IMG/VR virus record: IMGVR_UViG_3300037467_001050
Location: 32,001 to 96,000 of that record
DNA from: a virus
Strand: one strand, 5' to 3'
Length of the DNA: 64,000 nucleotides
A program made the translations under genes and the position numbers. Shown here piece after piece: positions 8,135 through 17,608 of this stretch. The notes under the pieces were generated by a model, which searched no databases, was not told the origin of the DNA, and worked only from the letters and a program-made list of their open reading frames with translations. Position 1 is the stretch's first letter; every line of letters begins with the position of its first letter.

Positions 8135-8859
8135 TTGGGCAGACGCAGACAGCAGGACGATCTGAGCAACTGGGCCGACAAGGTCCGCGAGCGACGGATC
8201 AAGGCCAAGGAATTCGAGGACCGCAAGCCGGATCCGATCCAACCCAAGACCGAGACCCAGGCCACCTACCTCCGGGCGCTGCGCTCCGAGGAGCAGATCG
8301 TGGTGCTCGGGCCGGCCGGCACCGGCAAGACCTTCCTCGCCGGAACCCACGCCGCCGATCAGCTGCGGTCGCGCAAGATCCGCAAGGTCGTCATCACCCG
8401 CCCCAACGTCCCCGGCGGCCGGAGCATCGGCTTCTTCCCCGGCACCCTCGAAGAGAAGATCGCCCCTGGGTGGTCCCGCTCACCGAGACCATGAAGGAGC
8501 GCATGGGGGTAGGGCCGTTCGAGATCGCCCTCAAGAACGGCGACATCGAGATCGTGCCCTTCGAGGTGATGCGCGGCCGGACTTTTCGCGATGCCATCGT
8601 GATCCTCGATGAGGCGCAGAACACCACGCCGGCCGAGATCAAGATGTTCCTCACCCGCATCGGCGAGGACGCCCAGGTGATCGTCAACGGCGACGTGTCC
8701 CAGACCGACCTGCGCGAGACCTCCGGTCTGCGCACCGCGATCCACCTGATCAAGAGCCAGGCCCTGCAGATCCCGATCATCGAGTTCAGCAAGGACGACA
8801 TCGTGCGCTCAGGCATCTGCGCCACCTGGGTCGACGCCTTCGACACCGCCGGGATCTGA
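8135..8859 (+). pseudogene. phoH: PhoH-family ATPase split by a 1-nt deletion near 8463-8466
   Basis: GPAGTGKT, ITRP, GFFPG in frame 1; MRGRTF, LDEAQN, GDVSQTD in frame 2; adding one C restores EKIAPWVVPL. Confidence 0.85.
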
Positions 8860-8932: not shown

Positions 8933-9196
8933 ATGCTAGACTGTCAACGTAGCGGTGCAATCATCATCTCGGTTGTCACGGTCCTCGGTTTCGCGATCGT
9001 GTGCGGGCTGACGTTCTTCATGCCGCGTCTCGACAACCAGCTCACGACCGTGATGCTCACCACCTACTCAGCTGGGTTCATCGCGGTCCTGAACTACTGG
9101 CTCGGCTCATCTGCCGGGTCGAAGGCCAAGGATCAGCAGATCGCCTCCTTGTCACAGAGCCTGACCGCACAGCCGGCAGAGCGAACCAACCAATAA
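8933..9196 (+). CDS. holin-like small membrane protein
   Basis: Two hydrophobic segments and the YWLGSSAGSKAKD motif seen in phage/GTA holin-like proteins. Confidence 0.55.
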   Translation: MLDCQRSGAIIISVVTVLGFAIVCGLTFFMPRLDNQLTTVMLTTYSAGFIAVLNYWLGSSAGSKAKDQQIASLSQSLTAQPAERTNQ

Positions 9197-9225
9197 GACC
9201 CCGGCCAACGGGGCGAGAGGAAACC

Positions 9226-9840
9226 ATGACGAAGCCCACCGGACGGCCGCGCGGCCGTCCCCGCAAGGACGCCGTCGAGCGTCCCGAGATCAGTGCCGAG
9301 AGCGAGAGCTGGCAGAGCCTGCCCTGGCGCCGGGTCTACGACATCATCGACGCCGACATGTCCGACGAAGACCAGGAGCGCATGCTCGATCAGGTCGACG
9401 ACGAGCAGTTCCTGAATTTCATCACGTCGCAGAACCCGAAGATCAACCCGCGGGCCAAGATCCAGATGAACCCGCTGACGCTGCGCACGCTCGCGGCGCT
9501 CGGCAAGCTCTTCTGCACCCAGCAGGAGGTCGCGGGCTATCTCGGCGTCTCGCGCGGCGCTCTGCAGAACTTCTTCGACCGCGAGCCCTACGCCCGCGAG
9601 GTGTTCGAGAACGGGCTGCAGCACGCCAAGATCTCACTGCGGCGCAAGCAGCTGGCGCTCGCCGACAAGAACGCGCCCGCCGCGATCTTCCTCGGCAAAA
9701 ACTATCTCGGCCAGCGCGACGAGCACCACAACACCACCACCAATGTGTCCGTCTCAAAGCTGTCGGACGCGGAGCTCGAAGAAATGGCACGGGCTGAAGC
9801 TGCCAAGGCAAAGGCCCAGACCAAGCAGTTCCACAGCTAA
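9226..9840 (+). CDS. terS: terminase small subunit
   Basis: Upstream of terL; HTH-like QQEVAGYLGVSR; AIFLGKNYLGQRD; N-terminal AT-hook GRPRGRPRK. Confidence 0.75.
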   Translation: MTKPTGRPRGRPRKDAVERPEISAESESWQSLPWRRVYDIIDADMSDEDQERMLDQVDDEQFLNFITSQNPKINPRAKIQMNPLTLRTLAALGKLFCTQQEVAGYLGVSRGALQNFFDREPYAREVFENGLQHAKISLRRKQLALADKNAPAAIFLGKNYLGQRDEHHNTTTNVSVSKLSDAELEEMARAEAAKAKAQTKQFHS

Positions 9841-9852
9841 GCAAGCACACCC

Positions 9853-11322
9853 ATGTCCAACAATGACGACGGCGGGAGCATCTCGCCGGCGACTGAGCTG
9901 CAACGCCGTCGGCGCGCACGCACGTCGCTCATCGGCTTTGCCGAATTCACCCTGGCCAAGTACAAGGCCGATCCCTTCCACTACAAGGTGGCGGAGAAGC
10001 TCGAAGCGGTCGAACGCGGCGAGATCAAGCGCCTGATGATCTTCGCGCCGCCGCGGCACGGCAAGTCCGAGCTGTCGACGCGCCGCTTCCCGGCTTGGTA
10101 CTTGGGTCGGAACCCGACCCACAACATCATCTCGGCCTCATACAACGCCGCGTTTGCCAAGGGCTTCGGCCGCAACGTCCGCGACATCGTCAACCAGGAG
10201 GAGTTCGGCGTCCTGTTCCCCGACGCCCGGGTGCGCGCCGATCTGCGCGCCGCGGATGAATGGGAGCTGGAGCAGGGCGGCCAATACTTCTCAGTGGGTG
10301 TCGGCTCAGGCACAACGGGCCGCGGTGCCAATCTATTTCTCATCGACGATCCAATCAAAGATAGAAAAGAGGCCGACTCCAAGACGTTCCGCGAGGATAT
10401 GTGGAACTGGTACCGAGACGTCGTCTACACCCGTCTCGAAGAAGACGCCCCGATCATCCTCACACTGACCCGGTGGCACTTCGACGACATCGCCGGCCGG
10501 CTTCTCGAGCTGCAGAAAACCGGCAAGGGTGAGCCGTGGGAGGTCCTACTCCTGCCGGCGCTCGCTACGCCGCGCAAGGACCCCGACACCGGAAAGCCCA
10601 TTCTCACGGAGGATGGCACCGTCCCGGGCGATCCGCTCAACCGCAAGCCCTTCGAGCCGCTGTCGCCGTCGCGCTTCTCCTACAAGGCCCTGAAGGACCG
10701 CGAGGAGGTTCTCGGCGAGCGCGGCTGGTCGGCCCTCTACCAGCAGAACCCCATCTCGGAAGAAGGTGGGATGTTCAAGTCCAGCTGGTTCGGGGTGGCC
10801 GACACGCTGCCCGCGCGCCGGCAGCGCGTGCGCGCCTGGGACTTCGGTGCCTCAATCGACGGCGACTGGACCGTCGGCGTCCTGATGAGCCGCGACAGCA
10901 ACGGCGTCTTCTACATCGAGGACGTGCGCCGGCTGCGCGGAACACCCCATGAGGTCGAGAAGCTGGTCTCGGAGACGGCCCGCGACGACGGCAAGGGCGT
11001 CCGGATCCGCATCCCCCAGGATCCGGGTCAGGCTGGTAAGGCTCAGAAGCTCAATTACATGAGGCTGTTGGCCGGCTACCGCGTGGAAGCCGAGCGGATC
11101 AGCGGAGACAAGAAAACCCGCGCCGAAGCCTTCGCGGCCCAAGCGCAGGGCGAGATGGTCAAGATCTACACCGGCGGCGTGGGCGGCTCCCACTGGCGGC
11201 AGGTGTTCTTGGACGAGCTCGCCACATTTCCCCTCGGAACCCACGACGACCAAGTCGACGCAGCCGCCGACGCTTTCAACGCCCTGCTCGGGCGGCGGAA
11301 GGCCGGCATCGCTGACTGGTGA
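9853..11322 (+). CDS. terL: terminase large subunit
   Basis: PPRHGKS Walker A, LIDDP Walker B, AWDFG and HDDQVDA nuclease motifs. Confidence 0.95.
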   Translation: MSNNDDGGSISPATELQRRRRARTSLIGFAEFTLAKYKADPFHYKVAEKLEAVERGEIKRLMIFAPPRHGKSELSTRRFPAWYLGRNPTHNIISASYNAAFAKGFGRNVRDIVNQEEFGVLFPDARVRADLRAADEWELEQGGQYFSVGVGSGTTGRGANLFLIDDPIKDRKEADSKTFREDMWNWYRDVVYTRLEEDAPIILTLTRWHFDDIAGRLLELQKTGKGEPWEVLLLPALATPRKDPDTGKPILTEDGTVPGDPLNRKPFEPLSPSRFSYKALKDREEVLGERGWSALYQQNPISEEGGMFKSSWFGVADTLPARRQRVRAWDFGASIDGDWTVGVLMSRDSNGVFYIEDVRRLRGTPHEVEKLVSETARDDGKGVRIRIPQDPGQAGKAQKLNYMRLLAGYRVEAERISGDKKTRAEAFAAQAQGEMVKIYTGGVGGSHWRQVFLDELATFPLGTHDDQVDAAADAFNALLGRRKAGIADW

Positions 11323-11353: not shown

Positions 11354-12892
11354 ATGGCTCAAACTGCAAATCCCGGCCTGTTCTCGGCTGCCTCCGCCTC
11401 GATGTCGGCACGGCGCGCGCTGATGCGCGCGGTCTACGGCGGCACAGAGACCCTGCGCGCCGCACGGGAAACCTACCTGCCGCGCTACGAGAACGAGAGC
11501 CCGACCCGCTACGAGACCCGGCTCGCCGCTGCCACGTCGCTGAACAAGCTCAGGGAGGCCGTCGACGCGGCTTCCGCGAAGCCGTTCAAGACGATGATCA
11601 AGTTGATCAACAACACCGACGCCGATCTCGATCAGTGGGTCCGTGACATCGATCTGACCGGCAACCATCTGCACATCTTCGCCCACCAGCACTTCAACGA
11701 CTCGCTGCTGATGGGGCAGGGGCACATCCTGGTGGATCACCCGACCACCTCGAACATGCCGAACCTCGGCGCTCAGCTCGCCTCAGGCGTTCGGCCGTTC
11801 ATGAAGTACATCCGCGACGACGACCTGCGCGCGGCCTACAGCGAGAACGTCGGCGGCGACATCCAGGTGACGCACGTCCGCATCTTCTCGACCCGCGTGG
11901 AGCGCGAGCCCGGCACCTTCAAGGAGAAGGTCTGGAACCAGATCTACGTGATCGAGAAGGAGGTCGGCGCCAACGCGGGCGTCGTGCAGGTCTGGGAGCA
12001 GGACGCGCAGGCCGGCGGCGACAGCTGGGATCTCATCTCCGAGAGCCCGCTCACCATGCCGGAAGTGCCGTTCGTGACGCTCTACGCGGGCGAGAAGGAG
12101 GGCGACTTCATCACCCGCCCGATCTTCCTCGACTTGGCGCACAAACAGGTGGAGCACTACCAGAGCTCGGCCGACCAGCGCTCGATCCTGTCCGCGGCGC
12201 GCTTCCCCATGCTCGCCGCCTCCGGCATTGAGTTCGACGAGGAGGAGATCTCGAAGTTCACGGTCGGCCCCTACAAGGCGCTGTTCTCCCCCGATCCGCA
12301 GGGCCGCTACTACTACGTCGAGCCGGCCGGACGGGCGATCAAGTCTGGCGCGGACGACCTCGCCGCCATGGAAATCCAGATGGACATGATGTCCCTCAAT
12401 CCCGTGGTCGGCACGCACCGGCAGTACGTGCCCGCCAACGAGCGCGACATCGCCGAGACGCGGGTGCATTCGGTGGTCCACGATCTGGCGCTGTCCGAGA
12501 AGGACGCGCTGGAGCGCGCGATCGGCTTCATGGGCACCTGGGTCAACCGGGACTTCTCGAACGTGGGCGTCGGCCTCAACTCCGACTTCACGAACACGAA
12601 GGACAAGATGATCCAGATGGGCGTCTTGTTGAACGCCTTCACCTCGAAGGCGATCTCGCTCGAGACCTTCCTGGAGCAGGCGCGCCGCCTCGATCTCGTG
12701 GACGACGAGTTCGACGTGAACGCCGAGGTCCAGCGGCTGGCCGCCGCCAACGCGGCGCTCGCGGACGAGGAGGATCCCAACGTCGACAACACCGGCCCGG
12801 TCGCCGGCTCGGCCTCCGACCCGGTACGTGCTTCGACCACGGCCCCGGTGGACTTCCCGAACGGCCGGACCCGCCCTAGATCTCAGATCTGA
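11354..12892 (+). CDS. portal protein (DUF4055-like)
   Basis: Follows terL; 512 aa; YLPRYENE...RYETRL pattern. Confidence 0.85.
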   Translation: MAQTANPGLFSAASASMSARRALMRAVYGGTETLRAARETYLPRYENESPTRYETRLAAATSLNKLREAVDAASAKPFKTMIKLINNTDADLDQWVRDIDLTGNHLHIFAHQHFNDSLLMGQGHILVDHPTTSNMPNLGAQLASGVRPFMKYIRDDDLRAAYSENVGGDIQVTHVRIFSTRVEREPGTFKEKVWNQIYVIEKEVGANAGVVQVWEQDAQAGGDSWDLISESPLTMPEVPFVTLYAGEKEGDFITRPIFLDLAHKQVEHYQSSADQRSILSAARFPMLAASGIEFDEEEISKFTVGPYKALFSPDPQGRYYYVEPAGRAIKSGADDLAAMEIQMDMMSLNPVVGTHRQYVPANERDIAETRVHSVVHDLALSEKDALERAIGFMGTWVNRDFSNVGVGLNSDFTNTKDKMIQMGVLLNAFTSKAISLETFLEQARRLDLVDDEFDVNAEVQRLAAANAALADEEDPNVDNTGPVAGSASDPVRASTTAPVDFPNGRTRPRSQI

Positions 12893-13165: not shown

Positions 13166-13215
13166 CAGCGTTTGCATTTTCTGGGGTGTTGACATCCCGA
13201 AAGGAAAATGCTAAT
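13162..13215 (+). promoter_or_regulatory. probable promoter(s) for the RNA island
   Basis: TTGACA at 13162 and 13189, interleaved with ATGC/TTGCA half-sites; -10 boxes weak. Confidence 0.45.
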
Positions 13216-13248
13216 GGAATGGCATCCTGCAAAAGGTGTGAGTGAAGC

Positions 13249-13488
13249 ATGTCCGTCGCGACGTCCCTTTCCCGCTGGGAGCTACCGACCTTCGGTGGCG
13301 TGGCGGCCGAGGATGTCCCGGCATGGATCGTCGAGGCGATGCTCCTCGGCGTCCTCACCGTGAACCGCCTCGGCGGGTTCACCCTCGACGATGCCCGCGG
13401 CACGAGCTGCATGGCAGGCGACATCGTGGTCCGACAGCCAGACGGCTCGATCACGTTCGAGAAGCAGGAGCAGGCCATCGCGGCCTGA
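13249..13488 (+). CDS. hypothetical protein
   Basis: 79-aa ORF ending 1 nt before the first tRNA-like gene. Confidence 0.65.
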   Translation: MSVATSLSRWELPTFGGVAAEDVPAWIVEAMLLGVLTVNRLGGFTLDDARGTSCMAGDIVVRQPDGSITFEKQEQAIAA

Positions 13489-13489
13489 T

Positions 13490-13581
13490 TGGAGCGTAGC
13501 TCAGTTGGTTAGAGCGCTGGCTTACCCCCGGTCTAACGGGGACGCCGGAGGCCACAGGTTCGAGCCCTGTCGCACCATCCA
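13490..13581 (+). ncRNA. tRNA-like RNA, Asp-type body with a 15-nt hairpin insertion in the anticodon loop
   Basis: D arm GCTC/GAGC, stem CTGGC/GCCGG, T arm ACAGG-TTCGAGC-CCTGT, TCCA end, 22-nt loop. Confidence 0.8.
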
Positions 13582-13663
13582 TCGGGAGCTGATCTGAAAG
13601 CCGCGATCAACAGGCTGGCGGCAGCTGGCCCTCCCGGCCAATTTCGCCCGAAATTGGGCACGG

Positions 13664-13740
13664 TAGGGTGTAGCTCAGCGGTCTAGAGCGCGGGTCTCCA
13701 AAACCCGGTGTCGCAGGTTCAAATCCTGCCTCCCTAGCCA
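13664..13740 (+). tRNA. trnW: tRNA-Trp(CCA)
   Basis: Full cloverleaf, CGGGT-CT CCA AA-ACCCG, G73, encoded CCA; one T-T mismatch at 6:67. Confidence 0.92.
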
Positions 13741-13779
13741 ATAGTTAGCCCGCAAGGGTGTTTTTGGAGAGCGAAAAGC

Positions 13780-14349
13780 TTGACCACGTACAGCATTTTC
13801 GATCACGGCTCTTGGGAGTCCTACATCAAGCCCGATAGCTTCGGGTCCATCCGACAGATCGGAACCGGGATCGACTGGTACGACTACCGGCAGAATGCCG
13901 CGAACTTCCACGGTGGCGTTCTTGTCACCCTGATGCAGGATTATGCGAACCCGGACGGCTTCCTGTCGGCGGCGCCAAACACCGATGTGTCGATGGTGTC
14001 CCCCTTCGGACGACTGATCGAGATCTTGGACTACGCTGGCTCCACACCTTCCGGTCCCAACAGCGATCTGGCCAACGCTCAGGTCGTCATCAGCGGCAAT
14101 ACCGCGACGTTCACGAAGCCTTACACCCTGACCTCTCGCACGGTTGTGAACCGCATGACCGACGCTGAGATGTACGCCGCCTACATGGCCGACCAGCTGC
14201 AGCCGCTGCGGTCTCGCCTCACAGGGACCGCCGTGCTGCTGACGAGCTTCACGGCACAGAGCGGGACCTCACAGTTCAGCCTGATCAAGGCGGCCTTCGC
14301 CAACCTGTTCGGTGCAGCTCGCGCCGAGACGCTGACAGCGGCCCCGTAG
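13780..14349 (+). CDS. hypothetical protein inside the RNA island, tail-fibre-assembly-like C-terminus
   Basis: 189 aa, TTG start after GGAG; helical C-terminus resembles 31428 protein by eye. Confidence 0.6.
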   Translation: MTTYSIFDHGSWESYIKPDSFGSIRQIGTGIDWYDYRQNAANFHGGVLVTLMQDYANPDGFLSAAPNTDVSMVSPFGRLIEILDYAGSTPSGPNSDLANAQVVISGNTATFTKPYTLTSRTVVNRMTDAEMYAAYMADQLQPLRSRLTGTAVLLTSFTAQSGTSQFSLIKAAFANLFGAARAETLTAAP

Positions 14350-14464
14350 TCGCCAGACGAGAACGAGATCGGCCGGCCCGCGTGGCCGGCCCACAATCAT
14401 GCTCTACCCCAGAGCGCATTCCCTACGGGCACCAGCCCTGAAAAACGTTGACGCCCCAGGTTAG

Positions 14465-14642
14465 GCCTACCACCCCCTTCGAGGGGGAACTCGAGCCCTC
14501 GTATGCGGCTCGAGTGGCGGTACTATGGTCGGATTAAGTAGGCGGGGAATTGCGAGGCAAGGAAGGTGGCGAGAGCCCCGGGTTCCGGTGCGAAAGCACG
14601 ACTGGACCGGCCAGACCGACGGGTCGCAAATGGGTGCCAATT
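14465..14642 (+). ncRNA. candidate structured ncRNA with two multibranch domains
   Basis: Several 4-8 bp stems, GAGA and GAAA tetraloops, TTGACG upstream at 14448. Confidence 0.6.
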
Positions 14643-14649
14643 CGAGATC

Positions 14650-14738
14650 GACGACGTGGTGGCTGAGAGGCTGAAGGCACCACAGAAATGGGGCACGGCC
14701 TGCGGGTCGTCGGGGGTTCAAATCCCTCCCACGTCGTC
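14650..14738 (+). ncRNA. type II tRNA-like RNA with truncated anticodon arm, 10-bp acceptor helix and no adjacent CCA
   Basis: GACGACGTGG/CCACGTCGTC; D arm; variable arm ACGGCC/GGTCGT; T arm GGGGG-TTCAAAT-CCCTC. Confidence 0.7.
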
Positions 14739-14747
14739 GTTTCCATG

Positions 14748-14824
14748 CCCGGTGTAGCTCAGTCTGGTAGAGCATGTGGTTCATGCCCACGGAGCCGCTG
14801 GTTCAAATCCAGCCACCGGCACCA
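14748..14824 (+). tRNA. tRNA(CAT), atypical (C1-C72 mismatch, G37)
   Basis: Cloverleaf, TGTGG-TT CAT GC-CCACG, ACCA end; identity (Met, fMet or Ile2) unresolved. Confidence 0.8.
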
Positions 14825-14941
14825 ACTTTCGAGGCGTGGACCCCTCGGGACCTCTCCGGTCCTAAGGCCTCGATCCCACCACGGTCGTGCTCGAACCGTG
14901 GTCCCTGCGCATGCGGGATACGATGAAGGGAAGGGGTGTCC

Positions 14942-15051
14942 GGGAGGGCATGAGGGCGGAGAGCCCCATCGGGCGCGTCGAGCTGAGCGTGCTCAGCTTC
15001 ACCGGCCCGATGCCTTTTGGCTTGGCGGTGAAAATCCAGCCCCTCCCACCA
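14942..15051 (+). ncRNA. 110-nt tRNA-like RNA with a long extended central arm
   Basis: GGGAGGG/CCCTCCC plus ACCA; GGGC/GCCC; ATCGGGC/GCCCGAT capped by AGCTGAG-CGTG-CTCAGCT; GGTGAAAATCC T-loop-like end. Confidence 0.6.
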
Positions 15052-15056
15052 GTTTC

Positions 15057-15140
15057 GAGTGAGATGCCCGGGTGGACGGGCGGGAGGCTGTAACCCTCCT
15101 GGCTATGCCGTGGTGGGTTCGAGCCCTGCCTCACTCACCA
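15057..15140 (+). tRNA. trnY: tRNA-Tyr(GTA)
   Basis: GAGTGAG/CTCACTC-ACCA, GGAGG-CT GTA AC-CCTCC, long variable arm. Confidence 0.88.
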
Positions 15141-15165: not shown

Positions 15166-15387
15166 ATGGCCACCATCAGCACCACCGTCCATAAGCTCTT
15201 CGTCTCCGACATCACCTCGATCGTCGTGACCGACATCGTCGAGCAGGAGGACGGCTCGTTCGTTCGCGCCGTGCGCTTCTATGGCGACGATGACGCCGGC
15301 AACAAGGACCAGCTCATCGTCGAGGTGAAGGTCACTGCCGCCACCAAGGCGGGCGTTCAGATCCCAGTTCCAGCCTCGGGTTTCTGA
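15166..15387 (+). CDS. small beta-rich hypothetical protein
   Basis: GAGG RBS, phage-like codon usage. Confidence 0.7.
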   Translation: MATISTTVHKLFVSDITSIVVTDIVEQEDGSFVRAVRFYGDDDAGNKDQLIVEVKVTAATKAGVQIPVPASGF

Positions 15388-15578
15388 GGCTCATTCAATC
15401 CCCATCGCGCTCCCGGCTCATCCCCGGTTGAGCGCGATCGCGACGGCCCCAGCCTGCAGCATCCCCGGCACAAGACGGGCAGGGATACCAAAGAGCGCGC
15501 CCCCGCACCTCGCGCCGCCGTCCATCGATCGCGAACCGGCTCCAAGACCGCGTCGCGTCGGCCCATAGGCCGCCACTG

Positions 15579-15608
15579 AGCCCCGGCTTCGCGCCGGGGC
15601 TTTTTTCT
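15579..15608 (+). terminator. intrinsic terminator before the scaffold gene
   Basis: AGCCCCGGC/GCCGGGGCT followed by a T run. Confidence 0.8.
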
Positions 15609-15626
15609 TGCCCAAGATCAGGCGGG

Positions 15627-16559
15627 ATGCCTGATCGTATTTCCGGGATGGAAATGGCACTTCACGCAATTGTCACCGACATCAATACTGTTCCCGAAGC
15701 ACTCCGCACCGAATACACCGAGAAGGACGGGAAGTTCTTCCTCAATGTAGAGCCGGTCGACGGGTTCAAGCTCGAGAACGTGGATGGGCTCGTCAACGCC
15801 CTGAGCGCCGAGCGCACCCTCAAGGACCGAGCCGAAGCTGCTCTCAAGCAGTTCAAGGACATCGATCCGAAGACCGCGCGCTCCGCCATCGAGGCGATCA
15901 CCGCCTACGGTGACCTCACCCCGCAGCAGGTCCAGGCCCTCCAAGAGGAGGTCGCCAATCTGCGCGCCATCGACCCGACCAAGGAAGCCGGCAAGCTCGC
16001 CGAGGCCCAGGTCAGCGCTGCGGTCGCCGCCGCCAAGGCTGAAGCCGAGCGCGTGTTCGGCACCGAGAAGACCACGCTCGCAGAGCAGCTCAACGGCCTC
16101 ACGGCGCTCAACGAGGGCCTGAAGGGTCAGCTCAAGGATCTGCTCGTCGGCAATCAGGTGAAGGCGGAAATCGCCCGCCTGAAGGTCGTGCCCGGCCTCG
16201 AGCCGGCCGCCGAGATGCTCGCCTCCCAGTCGATCCGCACGGTCGAGAAGGACAACGCCTTCCAGGTCGTGGTCATCGACAAGGACGGCAACCCGCGCAT
16301 GAAGCTCGGCGAGAACAACTCGCTCGTGCCGTTCACGGTCACGGACCTGATGGACGAGCTCAAGAAGACCACCCCCGGCCTCTTCCAGGCGGAAGACAAG
16401 GGCGGTGTTGGCATCCAGCCCGGGCGTCACGCTCCGGGCACCGGGGGCATCTCGAACCCCTGGTCGAAGGAGGCCTGGAACCAGACGGAGCAAGCCAAGC
16501 TCCGGCTCTCGAACCCCACCCTAGCCGCTCAGCTCAAGGCCCAGGCCGGCGTCTCCTGA
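15627..16559 (+). CDS. capsid scaffold protein (start may be 15648 or 15654)
   Basis: Directly before the capsid gene; coiled-coil; NPWSKE...NQTEQ tail. Confidence 0.8.
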   Translation: MPDRISGMEMALHAIVTDINTVPEALRTEYTEKDGKFFLNVEPVDGFKLENVDGLVNALSAERTLKDRAEAALKQFKDIDPKTARSAIEAITAYGDLTPQQVQALQEEVANLRAIDPTKEAGKLAEAQVSAAVAAAKAEAERVFGTEKTTLAEQLNGLTALNEGLKGQLKDLLVGNQVKAEIARLKVVPGLEPAAEMLASQSIRTVEKDNAFQVVVIDKDGNPRMKLGENNSLVPFTVTDLMDELKKTTPGLFQAEDKGGVGIQPGRHAPGTGGISNPWSKEAWNQTEQAKLRLSNPTLAAQLKAQAGVS

Positions 16560-16621: not shown

Positions 16622-17608
16622 ATGGCTATTGAGATCACCCAGCTCAAGGACATGATCGTCCCGGAGGAGTGGAACTCCTACATCGAGCTGACCACGACCC
16701 AGAAGAGCGAACTGTTCACCTCGGGCATCGTCCAGGATCTGTCGGCGGAAGTCGGCAATCAGCTGGAAGGCCCGCTGGTCCACATGCCCTACTTCGACGA
16801 CCTCGACAGTGACGACGATCACGAAGAGCAGCAGCTCGACGACGAGGACGACATCGTGGTGGACGGCATCACCACGGGCATGGACGTCGCGGTCAAGACC
16901 GCGCGCGCCAAGTCCTTCGGTTCGACCGACCTCGCCGCCGACCTCTCGGGCGCCGACCCGATCGCCGCGATCCAGAACAAGTTCGCTGGCTGGTGGGCCC
17001 GTCGGTACCAGACCGCTCTGCTCTCCGTGCTCGAGGGCGCGATGGGTTCGGTCGGTATGGAGTCCAACGTGCTCGACATCTCCGGCCTGACCGGCGATGC
17101 CGCGAAGTTCGCGCCTGTCCCCTTCGTCGAGGCCGCGTTCCTCCTGGGTGACGCCGCCGGTGGCCTGACCGCCCTGGCCGTCCACAGCCAGACGCTGAAG
17201 TCGATGGTCCTGGCCGACATGATCACGGTCGTGAAGGACTCGACCACGAACCTCGACATCCCGACGTACATGGGCAAGCGCATCATCGTCGACGACTCCA
17301 TGCCGGTCACCGGCACGGGCGTGGACCGCGTCTACACCAGCTACCTGTTCGGGCCGGGCGCCATCGGCTACGCCACCAAGCCGCTGAAGGTGCCGGTCGA
17401 GGTGGGCCGCAACGCCCTCAAGACCATGGGTCAGGACTACGTCGTCAACAGGAAGCAGTGGGTGCTCCACCCGCGCGGCATCGCCTGGAAGGGCAATGCG
17501 GTGAAGAAGTCCGGTCCGGTCAACGCCGAGCTCAAGAACCCGGCCAACTGGAACCGCGTGTACGACCACAAGCTGATCCGGCTCGTGGCGTTCAAGCACA
17601 AGAACTAA
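16622..17608 (+). CDS. major capsid protein
   Basis: 328 aa after scaffold, highly biased codons, followed by a terminator. Confidence 0.88.
   Translation: MAIEITQLKDMIVPEEWNSYIELTTTQKSELFTSGIVQDLSAEVGNQLEGPLVHMPYFDDLDSDDDHEEQQLDDEDDIVVDGITTGMDVAVKTARAKSFGSTDLAADLSGADPIAAIQNKFAGWWARRYQTALLSVLEGAMGSVGMESNVLDISGLTGDAAKFAPVPFVEAAFLLGDAAGGLTALAVHSQTLKSMVLADMITVVKDSTTNLDIPTYMGKRIIVDDSMPVTGTGVDRVYTSYLFGPGAIGYATKPLKVPVEVGRNALKTMGQDYVVNRKQWVLHPRGIAWKGNAVKKSGPVNAELKNPANWNRVYDHKLIRLVAFKHKN

What the first reader, a model, noticed from the sequence alone, without database searches (positions are those of the whole stretch)
13490..15140. RNA island of tRNA mimics with rebuilt anticodon arms
Seen: in 1.65 kb there are two ordinary tRNAs (Trp, Tyr), one atypical CAT tRNA and three tRNA-shaped genes. 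In each of the three the acceptor helix and outer arms are recognisable but the anticodon arm is altered: +15 nt (13490), cut to 3 bp (14650), or replaced by a long two-part helix (14942). Inserted sequences form their own helices, which argues against simple decay. Known: phage tRNAs can offset host anticodon nucleases. Inference: a dedicated set of non-decoding tRNA mimics (nuclease decoys, synthetase or ribosome ligands), placed unusually between portal and scaffold. Best candidate for an undescribed system in this window.
Basis: partly seen in the sequence, partly recalled or inferred. Interest (0 to 1): 0.88.

Follow-up and report, generated by a model that had tools for sequence, protein, structure and literature searches.

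The report
Phage tRNA cluster with non-decoding tRNAs
A soil phage of Methylobacterium/Bradyrhizobium-type bacteria has a small tRNA gene cluster in which three of six genes keep a tRNA shape but cannot read codons; they may be dead tRNA copies or working tRNA look-alikes, and the sequence alone cannot yet tell which.

Summary
Window 13490-15140 contains tRNA-Trp, a CAU tRNA with a proline-type body, tRNA-Tyr, and three tRNA-shaped genes with unusable anticodon arms.

- el1 (13490) has a host tRNA-Asp-type body. Its 7-nt anticodon loop has become 22 nt and contains a 5-bp hairpin.
- el2 (14650) is a host-type tRNA-Ser(CGA) that lacks exactly C32-U33-C34 and the encoded CCA.
- el3 (14942) matches no tRNA in sequence. 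It has a perfect 7-bp acceptor plus ACCA, a T-like arm and a very stable 45-nt central helix.

The position is normal for this lineage: 23 of 48 relatives carry tRNAs at the same spot. None of the three elements has a homologue in about 125 related loci, in IMG/VR pattern scans or in 401 host-family genomes. Covariation therefore cannot be tested. Expression data could not be obtained.

My best reading is a fast-evolving, host-derived tRNA operon with members that have lost decoding. el2 looks like a fresh pseudogene. el3 looks like a selected tRNA-framed small RNA comparable to T4 RNAC. A dedicated decoy system remains possible (about 0.2).

Two new points: the phage encodes RtcB RNA ligase, and the island holds a conserved unclassified RNA at 14395-14650. 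Earlier notes of this scan describe similar hairpin-swapped tRNA bodies in other phages.

The parts
13191..13219 (+). Promoter-like TTGACA-N17-TAATGG upstream of the 79-aa gene
   Evidence: Read from the sequence. L019 and L011 have TTGACA at the matching place. Function is inferred; the consensus scan did not list it.
13249..13488 (+). Conserved 79-aa gene that marks the 5' edge of the tRNA site
   Evidence: tblastn finds homologues in about 50 related loci, always just downstream of the portal gene.
13490..13581 (+). el1: tRNA-Asp-type body with a 22-nt anticodon loop that contains a 5-bp hairpin; U73; encoded CCA
13664..13740 (+). Canonical tRNA-Trp(CCA), followed by a short GNRA hairpin and a U run
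   Evidence: Rfam 64.1 bits; ARAGORN; sequence.
13780..14349 (+). 189-aa gene of unknown function inserted in the island
   Evidence: Three homologues at 56-77% identity and a distant copy elsewhere in L019. No Pfam, PHROG or PDB match. The structure model is unusable, pLDDT 43.5.
14395..14650 (+). Conserved non-coding RNA-like block, with a 51-nt hairpin insertion at 14468-14518 that is specific to this phage
   Evidence: Shared with L132 (32/32 identical nt) and L019 (19/19 and 22/23 nt). One GNRA hairpin is replaced by a different GNRA hairpin. No Rfam match.
14650..14740 (+). el2: tRNA-Ser(CGA)-type gene lacking C32-U33-C34; G73 followed by UCG rather than CCA; leader and trailer extend the acceptor helix to 10 bp
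14748..14824 (+). tRNA with CAU anticodon, Pro-like body, C1.C72 mismatch and G37
   Evidence: Rfam 59.9 bits; ARAGORN drawing; the best body matches are tRNA-Pro.
14825..14941 (+). 117-nt spacer with hairpins; no homologue found
   Evidence: Fold z-score -0.96; no BLAST match in related loci or elsewhere in the genome.
14942..15051 (+). el3: 110-nt CCA-ending tRNA-framed RNA with a 45-nt helix in place of the anticodon arm
15057..15140 (+). tRNA-Tyr(GUA), class II, with A8; its variable arm is identical to that of host-family tRNA-Tyr
   Evidence: It fails the Rfam tRNA model.
15166..15387 (+). 73-aa gene starting 25 nt after tRNA-Tyr, so it is probably co-transcribed with el3 and Tyr
   Evidence: Homologues in relatives; same position in L019.
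15578..15610 (+). Strong intrinsic terminator that closes the unit

Best explanation
The stretch is the usual tRNA operon site of this phage lineage: temperate Methylobacterium/Bradyrhizobium-type phages of about 120 kb, with Bradyrhizobium phage BDU-MI-1 as the nearest isolate. The tRNA genes were captured from host-like genomes and turn over quickly.

Three genes still decode: Trp-CCA, a CAU tRNA rebuilt on a Pro-type body, and Tyr-GUA. Three others have lost decoding through changes confined to the anticodon arm.

- el2 is a recently inactivated tRNA-Ser(CGA). It has one 3-nt deletion, an uncompensated A.G pair, and no encoded CCA.
- el1 is a tRNA-Asp-type gene whose anticodon loop gained a self-complementary 15 nt. 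A single template-switch event inside the anticodon hairpin could produce this. That step is inferred, not shown.
- el3 has lost all sequence likeness to tRNAs but keeps perfect helices and an acceptor/T minihelix ending in ACCA. I therefore read it as a selected, stable tRNA-framed small RNA. It would probably be cut out of the operon transcript by RNase P like its neighbours. This makes it comparable to T4 RNAC.

Shown: the anatomy, the host origin of the tRNA bodies, the lineage-typical position, and the lack of homologues. Inferred: transcription, processing, and which elements are dead and which are used.
For: Position: tRNAs lie downstream of the conserved 79-aa gene in 23 of 48 relatives. 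L011/L082 and L019 carry arrays of 7-9. The gene content differs between relatives, which indicates turnover.

Host origin:
- el1 matches host tRNA-Asp at 33 of 35 positions from U8 to position 48 outside the loop, counted by hand on the sequences (hits).
- el2 matches host-family tRNA-Ser(CGA) at 79% identity with a 3-nt gap, and the T arm is identical.
- Tyr shares its variable arm with host tRNA-Tyr.

Decay in relatives: L019's island contains uncalled tRNA remnants at 8640-8721 and 9141-9228.

el3: the arm is more stable than 99.87% of genome 45-mers and the whole element more stable than 99.7%. It is the only frame with a T-like hairpin.

T4 rnaC lies in the T4 tRNA cluster and has a canonical T arm plus long hairpins. 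Its role is unknown (PMC3014915).

Transcription context: a promoter-like site precedes the 79-aa gene; orf73 starts 25 nt after Tyr; a terminator sits at 15578.
Against: Phage genomes rarely keep junk, yet about 300 nt of non-decoding tRNA-like genes persist here.

el1 is intact everywhere except the loop. Deriving it from CUGUCAC needs sequence added on both sides of GUC, which looks built rather than broken.

All three lesions fall in the anticodon arm. Part of this is ascertainment: copies broken elsewhere would not be recognised as tRNA-like.

The functional tRNAs of this island also lack orthologues in relatives, so the absence of homologues for el1-el3 does not argue for decay.

No expression data were available.
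Confidence: 0.5

Rival explanations
1. The three genes are a working set of non-decoding tRNA mimics. They are transcribed with the real tRNAs and cut out by RNase P. They then act as decoys or competitive inhibitors for host proteins that attack or count tRNAs, such as anticodon nucleases or VapC-type toxins. The phage's RtcB ligase repairs cleaved tRNAs alongside them. el2 could still be serylated, because SerRS reads the variable arm and not the anticodon.
For: The acceptor, D and T arms are preserved while only the anticodon arm is altered. el3's structure is highly non-random. Each odd gene sits directly upstream of a real tRNA, inside a transcription unit. The phage encodes RtcB. Phage tRNAs are known to counter tRNA-cleaving defences (PMC10264068, PMC11464382, PMC11555353). 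Irregular tRNAs that are charged but not used in translation have been described (PMC5389517). Earlier notes of this scan report hairpin-swapped tRNA bodies in other phages (unchecked).
Against: No homologue was found in about 125 related loci, IMG/VR pattern scans or 401 host-family genomes. el2 lacks CCA and carries an uncompensated A.G pair. RtcB is widespread in tRNA-bearing phages and is not tied to these elements. No nuclease target is identified.
Confidence: 0.25
2. The hairpin-bearing tRNA copies are scars of a small mobile cassette that settles at tRNA genes. Examples would be the homing-endonuclease or GIY-YIG type seen elsewhere in this scan, and SegB in the T4 tRNA cluster.
For: Earlier scan notes describe pseudo-tRNAs whose anticodon arm is replaced by a hairpin, sitting next to real tRNAs (unchecked). 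Here each odd gene precedes a real tRNA. An unrelated gene (ORF189) is inserted in the island. T4 carries segB inside its tRNA cluster.
Against: No GIY-YIG domain is found anywhere in the phage genome in six frames. The odd genes are not copies of their neighbouring tRNAs. The inserted segments are unique and not alike, so there is no shared palindrome. ORF189 has no nuclease signature.
Confidence: 0.07
3. The extra sequence in el1 (and in el3) is an intron-like insert. An endonuclease removes it and the phage's RtcB reseals the ends, giving working tRNAs.
For: RtcB is the ligase for tRNA splicing and repair, and the phage encodes one. The insert lies in the anticodon loop, where tRNA introns normally sit.
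Against: There is no bulge-helix-bulge motif; the exon positions do not pair with the insert (checked by hand on the sequence). The genome has no EndA-type endonuclease. At 15 nt the insert is far too short for a group I intron, and Rfam finds none. No contiguous 15-nt deletion restores an Asp loop. RtcB is also present in relatives that lack such inserts.
Confidence: 0.04
4. The odd genes are special decoders. el1 would be an amber suppressor (CUA in the apical loop) or a Val-UAC tRNA, and el2 a frameshift tRNA with a short loop.
For: ARAGORN draws el1 as Val-UAC. The apical loop GGUCUAAC contains U-CUA-A.
Against: TAG is a normal stop codon, ending 17 of 78 long ORFs. The Val fold is 9 kcal/mol weaker, has C37 and lacks position 26. 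An anticodon arm lengthened by 5 bp cannot span the distance between decoding centre and peptidyl-transferase centre (general knowledge of tRNA geometry). el2's loop is a GAAA tetraloop without U33.
Confidence: 0.03

Closest known systems
Phage tRNA gene clusters with pseudo or irregular tRNAs, including the irregular tRNA polycistrons and alpha-proteobacterial phage clusters of Mukai et al. 2017 (PMC5389517)
   Same: Host-derived tRNA genes lie in one operon-like array. Some members have non-canonical arms and may be charged without being used in translation. The setting is soil alpha-proteobacterial phages.
   Different: The elements here have the normal 7/5 acceptor/T geometry, not 8/4 or 9/3. 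Their defect is the loss or replacement of the anticodon loop itself.
Bacteriophage T4 RNAC and RNAD (species 1 and 2 RNAs)
   Same: They are small stable RNAs encoded inside the phage tRNA cluster. rnaC has a canonical T arm near its 3' end and long internal hairpins. Their function is still unknown (PMC3014915, PMC9697503).
   Different: There is no sequence similarity. el3 has a perfect 7-bp acceptor with encoded ACCA and a degenerate T loop (UGAAAAU). Expression of el3 has not been shown.
Phage tRNAs that counter anticodon nucleases (T5 tRNAs against PrrC, PARIS or retron effectors; PMC10264068, PMC11464382, PMC11555353)
   Same: The tRNAs are phage-encoded and altered in the anticodon loop. 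The phage also carries tRNA repair capacity (RtcB).
   Different: The known cases are still working decoders with point changes in the loop. These three cannot decode at all.
Bacterial Y RNA-like YrlA (Rfam RF02553) with Rsr and RtcB
   Same: It is a tRNA-like module linked genetically to RtcB in some bacteria. The anticodon arm is replaced by a long helix.
   Different: In YrlA the 5' and 3' ends lie in the long helix, whereas in el3 they lie in the acceptor stem. The phage has no TROVE/Ro protein. The weak Rfam hit only spans el2's T arm and the next tRNA's D arm.

Membership tests
Canonical tRNA (Rfam RF00005) | Covariance-model score at or above the gathering score (29 bits) | tested here: met
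   el1 scores 52.0 bits and el2 36.7 bits; el3 gives no hit at E<=10. The feature is met for el1 and el2 and not met for el3.
Canonical tRNA (Rfam RF00005) | 5-bp anticodon stem closed by a 7-nt loop with U33, an anticodon and purine 37 | tested here: not met
   el1 has a 22-nt loop. el2 has a 14-nt arm with a GAAA loop and no U33. el3 has a 45-nt helix with a CGUG loop.
Canonical tRNA (Rfam RF00005) | 3' NCCA end encoded, as in the neighbouring genes | tested here: inconclusive
   el1 has UCCA and el3 has ACCA. el2 has G73 followed by UCG, and the phage has no CCA-adding enzyme. The host enzyme could still add CCA.
Pseudo-tRNA (decaying gene copy) | Traceable to a functional tRNA by a few simple mutations, some of them uncompensated | tested here: met
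   Met for el2: it is tRNA-Ser(CGA) minus C32-U33-C34, with pair 29-41 now A.G and GCCA changed to GUCG. Partly met for el1: it has an Asp-type body, but the loop change is complex. Not met for el3, for which no parent tRNA was found.
Stable tRNA-framed small RNA of phage tRNA clusters (T4 RNAC/RNAD type) | Lies in the tRNA operon, has an acceptor/T-arm frame and no anticodon | tested here: met
   el3 lies between tRNA-CAU and tRNA-Tyr and has the frame. T4 rnaC shows a T arm plus long hairpins.
Stable tRNA-framed small RNA of phage tRNA clusters (T4 RNAC/RNAD type) | Accumulates as a stable processed RNA during infection | not testable with these tools
tmRNA | Alanine identity pair G3:U70, a tag reading frame, detection by ARAGORN or Rfam | tested here: not met
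   el3 has G3-C70. ARAGORN finds no tmRNA and Rfam gives no hit.
Y RNA-like YrlA with Ro/Rsr | Ends located in the Ro-binding helix, and a TROVE protein encoded nearby | tested here: not met
   The phage has no TROVE domain. The YrlA hit scores 25.4 bits against a gathering score of 69 and spans two adjacent genes.
Archaeal-type or group I tRNA intron | Bulge-helix-bulge motif with an EndA nuclease, or a group I ribozyme core | tested here: not met
   No EndA is present and Rfam finds no intron. The insert is 15 nt, and no BHB pairing is seen on inspecting the sequence.
allo-tRNA (8/4 or 9/3; PMC5389517) | 12-bp acceptor branch split 8/4 or 9/3 | tested here: not met
   el2 has a 7-bp acceptor and a 5-bp T stem; the extra pairs come from leader and trailer.
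Hairpin pseudo-tRNA of GIY-YIG cassettes (earlier notes of this scan) | Small GIY-YIG gene alongside, a copy of the neighbouring tRNA, and a shared palindrome | tested here: not met
   The genome has no GIY-YIG domain. The elements are not copies of their neighbours. The inserts are unique.

The most novel reading that the evidence does not exclude
el1 and el3, and possibly el2, are expressed, RNase P-processed, CCA-ended tRNA mimics that cannot enter decoding. They would bind and neutralise host tRNA-targeting defence nucleases or toxins. el1 and el3 display GUC and GUG, the Asp and His anticodons of the GUN family, at the tips of stable hairpins. Together with the phage RtcB ligase and replacement tRNAs this would form a three-part counter-defence.
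Probability: 0.2. Interest if true: 0.8.

Novelty: new variant of a known kind. Interest (0 to 1): 0.42.

Why it matters
Phage tRNAs are now seen as weapons against tRNA-cleaving host defences. All characterised cases are still working decoders. If even one of these three RNAs is a stable non-decoding mimic, it would add a decoy mode to that conflict. It might also hint at a role for the long-unexplained T4 RNAC/RNAD class.

If they are dead copies, the island instead shows how phage tRNA arrays are built from host genes and decay. In that case automatic tRNA calls such as 'Val-UAC' for el1 should not be trusted.

Tried and rejected
**Searches for homologues, all negative**
- blastn-short of each element against about 85 related viral and genome loci, and later 40 metagenome loci.
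- A strict cloverleaf scan for tRNA bodies with enlarged anticodon arms over 1 Mb of relatives.
- IMG/VR pattern scans for el1 and el3. The four el3 hits were chance matches in coding sequence.
- A search of 401 host-family genomes. It matched only el2, the CAU tRNA and Tyr, each to ordinary host tRNAs. Only two candidates per genome were scored, so this is weak negative evidence for el3.

**Motif scans for the conserved 14395-14650 RNA**
- They found only chance coding matches.

**Mobile-element ideas**
- MITE or repeat origin of the inserts is rejected, because the inserts are unique in the genome.
- GIY-YIG cassette is rejected.

**Other RNA classes**
- Archaeal intron, group I intron, tmRNA, YrlA and allo-tRNA are rejected; see the membership tests.

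**Decoding alternatives**
- Amber suppression is rejected, because TAG is a normal stop.

**ORF189**
- No family or PDB match, and the AlphaFold model is too poor to use (pLDDT 43.5).
- The IMG/VR scan with its alignment found nothing.

- As a result there are no expression data, and I could not reach the contigs of the closest ORF189 relatives (P0092, P0094).
Full report
**What the window is.** The window is bases 32001-96000 of a 122,894-bp IMG/VR virus record with 64.6% G+C, rated complete. Large terminase (9853-11322), portal (11354-12892), scaffold (15627-16559) and major capsid (16622-17608) were identified with PHROGs and Pfam. The nearest isolate is Bradyrhizobium phage BDU-MI-1, with 58% capsid identity. 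Portal relatives at 50-63% identity come from Methylobacterium and Bradyrhizobium genomes and from soil viromes.

**Check of the observation.**
- ARAGORN calls five plus-strand genes in 13490-15140. It also makes a sixth call on the minus strand inside the scaffold gene, which I regard as false.
- Rfam's tRNA model scores Trp 64.1, the CAT tRNA 59.9, el1 52.0 and el2 36.7 bits. Tyr reaches only a sub-threshold tRNA-Sec hit. el3 is not hit at all.

**el1 (13490-13581).**
- Rfam aligns a complete class I body with a 22-nt anticodon loop.
- In host-type genomes the best match is tRNA-Asp(GUC). The D arm, G26, the 3' strand of the anticodon stem and the T loop are identical, and 9 of 10 anticodon-stem bases match.
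- The loop CUGUCAC has become UU-ACCCCCG-GUC-UAACGGGG-AC. A 5-bp GC helix now carries GUC in its apical loop.
- No single contiguous 15-nt insertion turns the Asp loop into this sequence.
- The extended-arm fold is 9 kcal/mol better than ARAGORN's 'Val-UAC' drawing.
- A 5-bp hairpin in a random 22-mer of this genome occurs 7-10% of the time, so the helix alone proves little.
- The discriminator is U, not the Asp identity base G73. The acceptor stem has one A.A mismatch.

**el2 (14650-14740).**
- Its D arm equals that of host tRNA-Ser.
- Against host-family tRNA-Ser(CGA) it aligns at 79% identity with one 3-nt gap, and the T arm is identical.
- The loop CUCGAAA has become GAAA. Pair 29-41 is now A.G. 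GCCA has become GUCG.
- This is what a recently inactivated gene looks like. Because SerRS does not read the anticodon (established knowledge; PMC5389517 discusses SerRS identity), charging cannot be excluded.

**el3 (14942-15051).**
- BLAST against two host-type genomes gives only chance-level matches, and Rfam gives nothing.
- It nevertheless has a perfect 7-bp terminal helix plus ACCA, a 4-bp hairpin with a GG-containing loop, a 45-nt helix (7 bp, an internal loop, then 2 + 8 bp, capped by CGUG), a small GCC-UUUU-GGC arm, and a 5-bp stem with one bulge closed by UGAAAAU.
- The arm is more stable than 99.87% of genome 45-mers, and the whole element more stable than 99.7%.
- Perfect 7-bp+NCCA frames occur 45 times in the genome by chance. 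Only this one also has a T-like hairpin, and it lies 5 nt before tRNA-Tyr.
- Sequence likeness is gone while the helices are perfect. That pattern points to selection on structure.

**The 'normal' tRNAs.**
- Trp is canonical.
- The CAU tRNA has a C1.C72 mismatch and G37, and its body is closest to tRNA-Pro.
- Tyr has A8 and shares its variable arm with host tRNA-Tyr.
- The whole array therefore looks host-derived and irregular.

**Position.**
- A conserved 79-aa gene (13249-13488) lies just before the island, and it has homologues in about 50 relatives.
- 23 of 48 relatives with enough downstream sequence carry at least one tRNA within 1.8 kb of it. This is usually Asn-GUU, and some relatives carry arrays of 7-9.
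- BDU-MI-1 has tRNA-Asn at the same place.
- The position is therefore typical for the lineage. The gene content differs from phage to phage.
- L019, a Methylobacterium contig, has its own uncalled tRNA remnants.

**Transcription context (inferred).**
- A TTGACA-N17 promoter-like site precedes the 79-aa gene, and el1 starts 2 nt after that gene's stop.
- orf73 starts 25 nt after tRNA-Tyr, and a strong terminator follows at 15578.
- The odd genes are thus embedded in units that must be transcribed for their neighbours to be expressed.
- A small leader motif (TCGC..AA.TGGG) precedes Trp, el2 and a tRNA-Gln in L019.

**Other parts of the genome.**
- The phage encodes RtcB (G000:C1:111162-112568, minus strand; 98.8 bits).
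- RtcB is also found in BDU-MI-1 (61.7% identity) and in hundreds of tRNA-bearing phages. It sets the scene but is not specific to these elements.
- The genome has no TROVE protein, CCA-adding enzyme, EndA, PF09414 ligase or GIY-YIG domain.

**Homologue searches.**
- None of el1, el2 or el3 has a homologue in the related loci, in IMG/VR pattern scans or in 401 host-family genomes.
- The functional tRNAs of the island have no orthologues in relatives either. Absence of homologues therefore does not decide between decay and function.
- Covariation could not be tested, and expression data could not be obtained.

**A conserved RNA inside the interval.**
- It carries a 51-nt hairpin insertion specific to this phage. 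One GNRA hairpin is replaced by a different GNRA hairpin in L132.
- It matches no Rfam family.

**Comparison with what is known.**
- T4 encodes RNAC and RNAD in its tRNA cluster, and their roles are unknown (PMC3014915, PMC9697503). Folding T4 rnaC shows a canonical T arm near the 3' end and long hairpins. This is the nearest described analogue of el3.
- Irregular tRNAs, some charged but not used in translation, and unusual tRNAs in alpha-proteobacterial phage clusters are described in PMC5389517.
- Phage tRNAs with anticodon-loop changes that escape nucleases are described in PMC10264068.
- Earlier notes of this scan report hairpin-swapped tRNA bodies in other phages and GIY-YIG cassettes beside tRNA genes. 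I tested the cassette idea here and it does not fit.

**Verdict.** The anatomy is real and unusual in having three different non-decoding tRNA derivatives in one 1.65-kb island. The claim of a dedicated mimic system rests on anatomy alone. I give 0.5 to a turnover reading in which el2 is dead, el1 is uncertain and el3 is probably a selected small RNA. I give 0.25 to a working mimic set. The remainder goes to mobile-cassette scars, intron-like processing and special decoding.

Noticed in passing
window 14395-14650: A conserved non-coding block is shared with two related phages: L132 563-748 (with a 32/32 identical stretch) and L019 8715-8920. This phage has a 51-nt hairpin insertion at 14468-14518, and one GNRA hairpin is swapped for another. 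No Rfam family matches. It is probably an undescribed small RNA of this phage lineage.
   Followed up: partly
L009 540-700, L013 870-1030, L019 8990-9135, L027 260-420, L033 2100-2260, L131 680-830, L132 1010-1160: A second conserved non-coding element, CCGGTAACGG...GG(G/A)TAAGCCAG...hairpin with loop GACTTCTGGATTG...CCCACC, lies next to tRNA genes in many relatives. It has no Rfam match at gathering score. It was not found in this phage.
   Followed up: partly
G000:C1:111162-112568 (minus strand; outside the window): The phage encodes an RtcB RNA ligase (468 aa, PF01139 98.8 bits). It is 61.7% identical to that of BDU-MI-1 and is also found in Rhizobium, Caulobacter and Mycobacterium phages. 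The nine neighbouring genes scanned are unannotated except a YqaJ-like recombinase.
   Followed up: partly
window 14748-14824: The CAU-anticodon tRNA has a Pro-type body, a C1.C72 mismatch and G37. It may be a tRNA-Pro converted to read AUG, or AUA after lysidine modification.
   Followed up: partly
window 13644-13660 and 14624-14636; L019 8892-8906: A short leader motif, TCGC(N0-4)AA(W)TGGG, forms a small hairpin 3-14 nt upstream of tRNA-Trp, el2 and L019 tRNA-Gln. It may be a processing or leader signal.
   Followed up: no
L019 8640-8721 and 9141-9228: The tRNA island of a Methylobacterium relative holds two tRNA-like remnants that no tool calls. One has a canonical T arm and ACCA but a long hairpin in place of its 5' half. 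The other is Tyr-like (GUA) with T loop UGCAAAU.
   Followed up: partly
window 16434-16531 (minus strand): ARAGORN's 98-nt 'tRNA-Ala(GGC)' lies inside the scaffold gene and has several mismatches. It is very probably a false positive.
   Followed up: no
window 13780-14349: A 189-aa gene of unknown function is inserted in the tRNA island. In L019 its distant homologue lies upstream of the terminase. A 77%-identical fragment (P0094) exists on a 1.3-kb metagenome contig, which hints at a closer relative phage that I could not fetch.
   Followed up: partly
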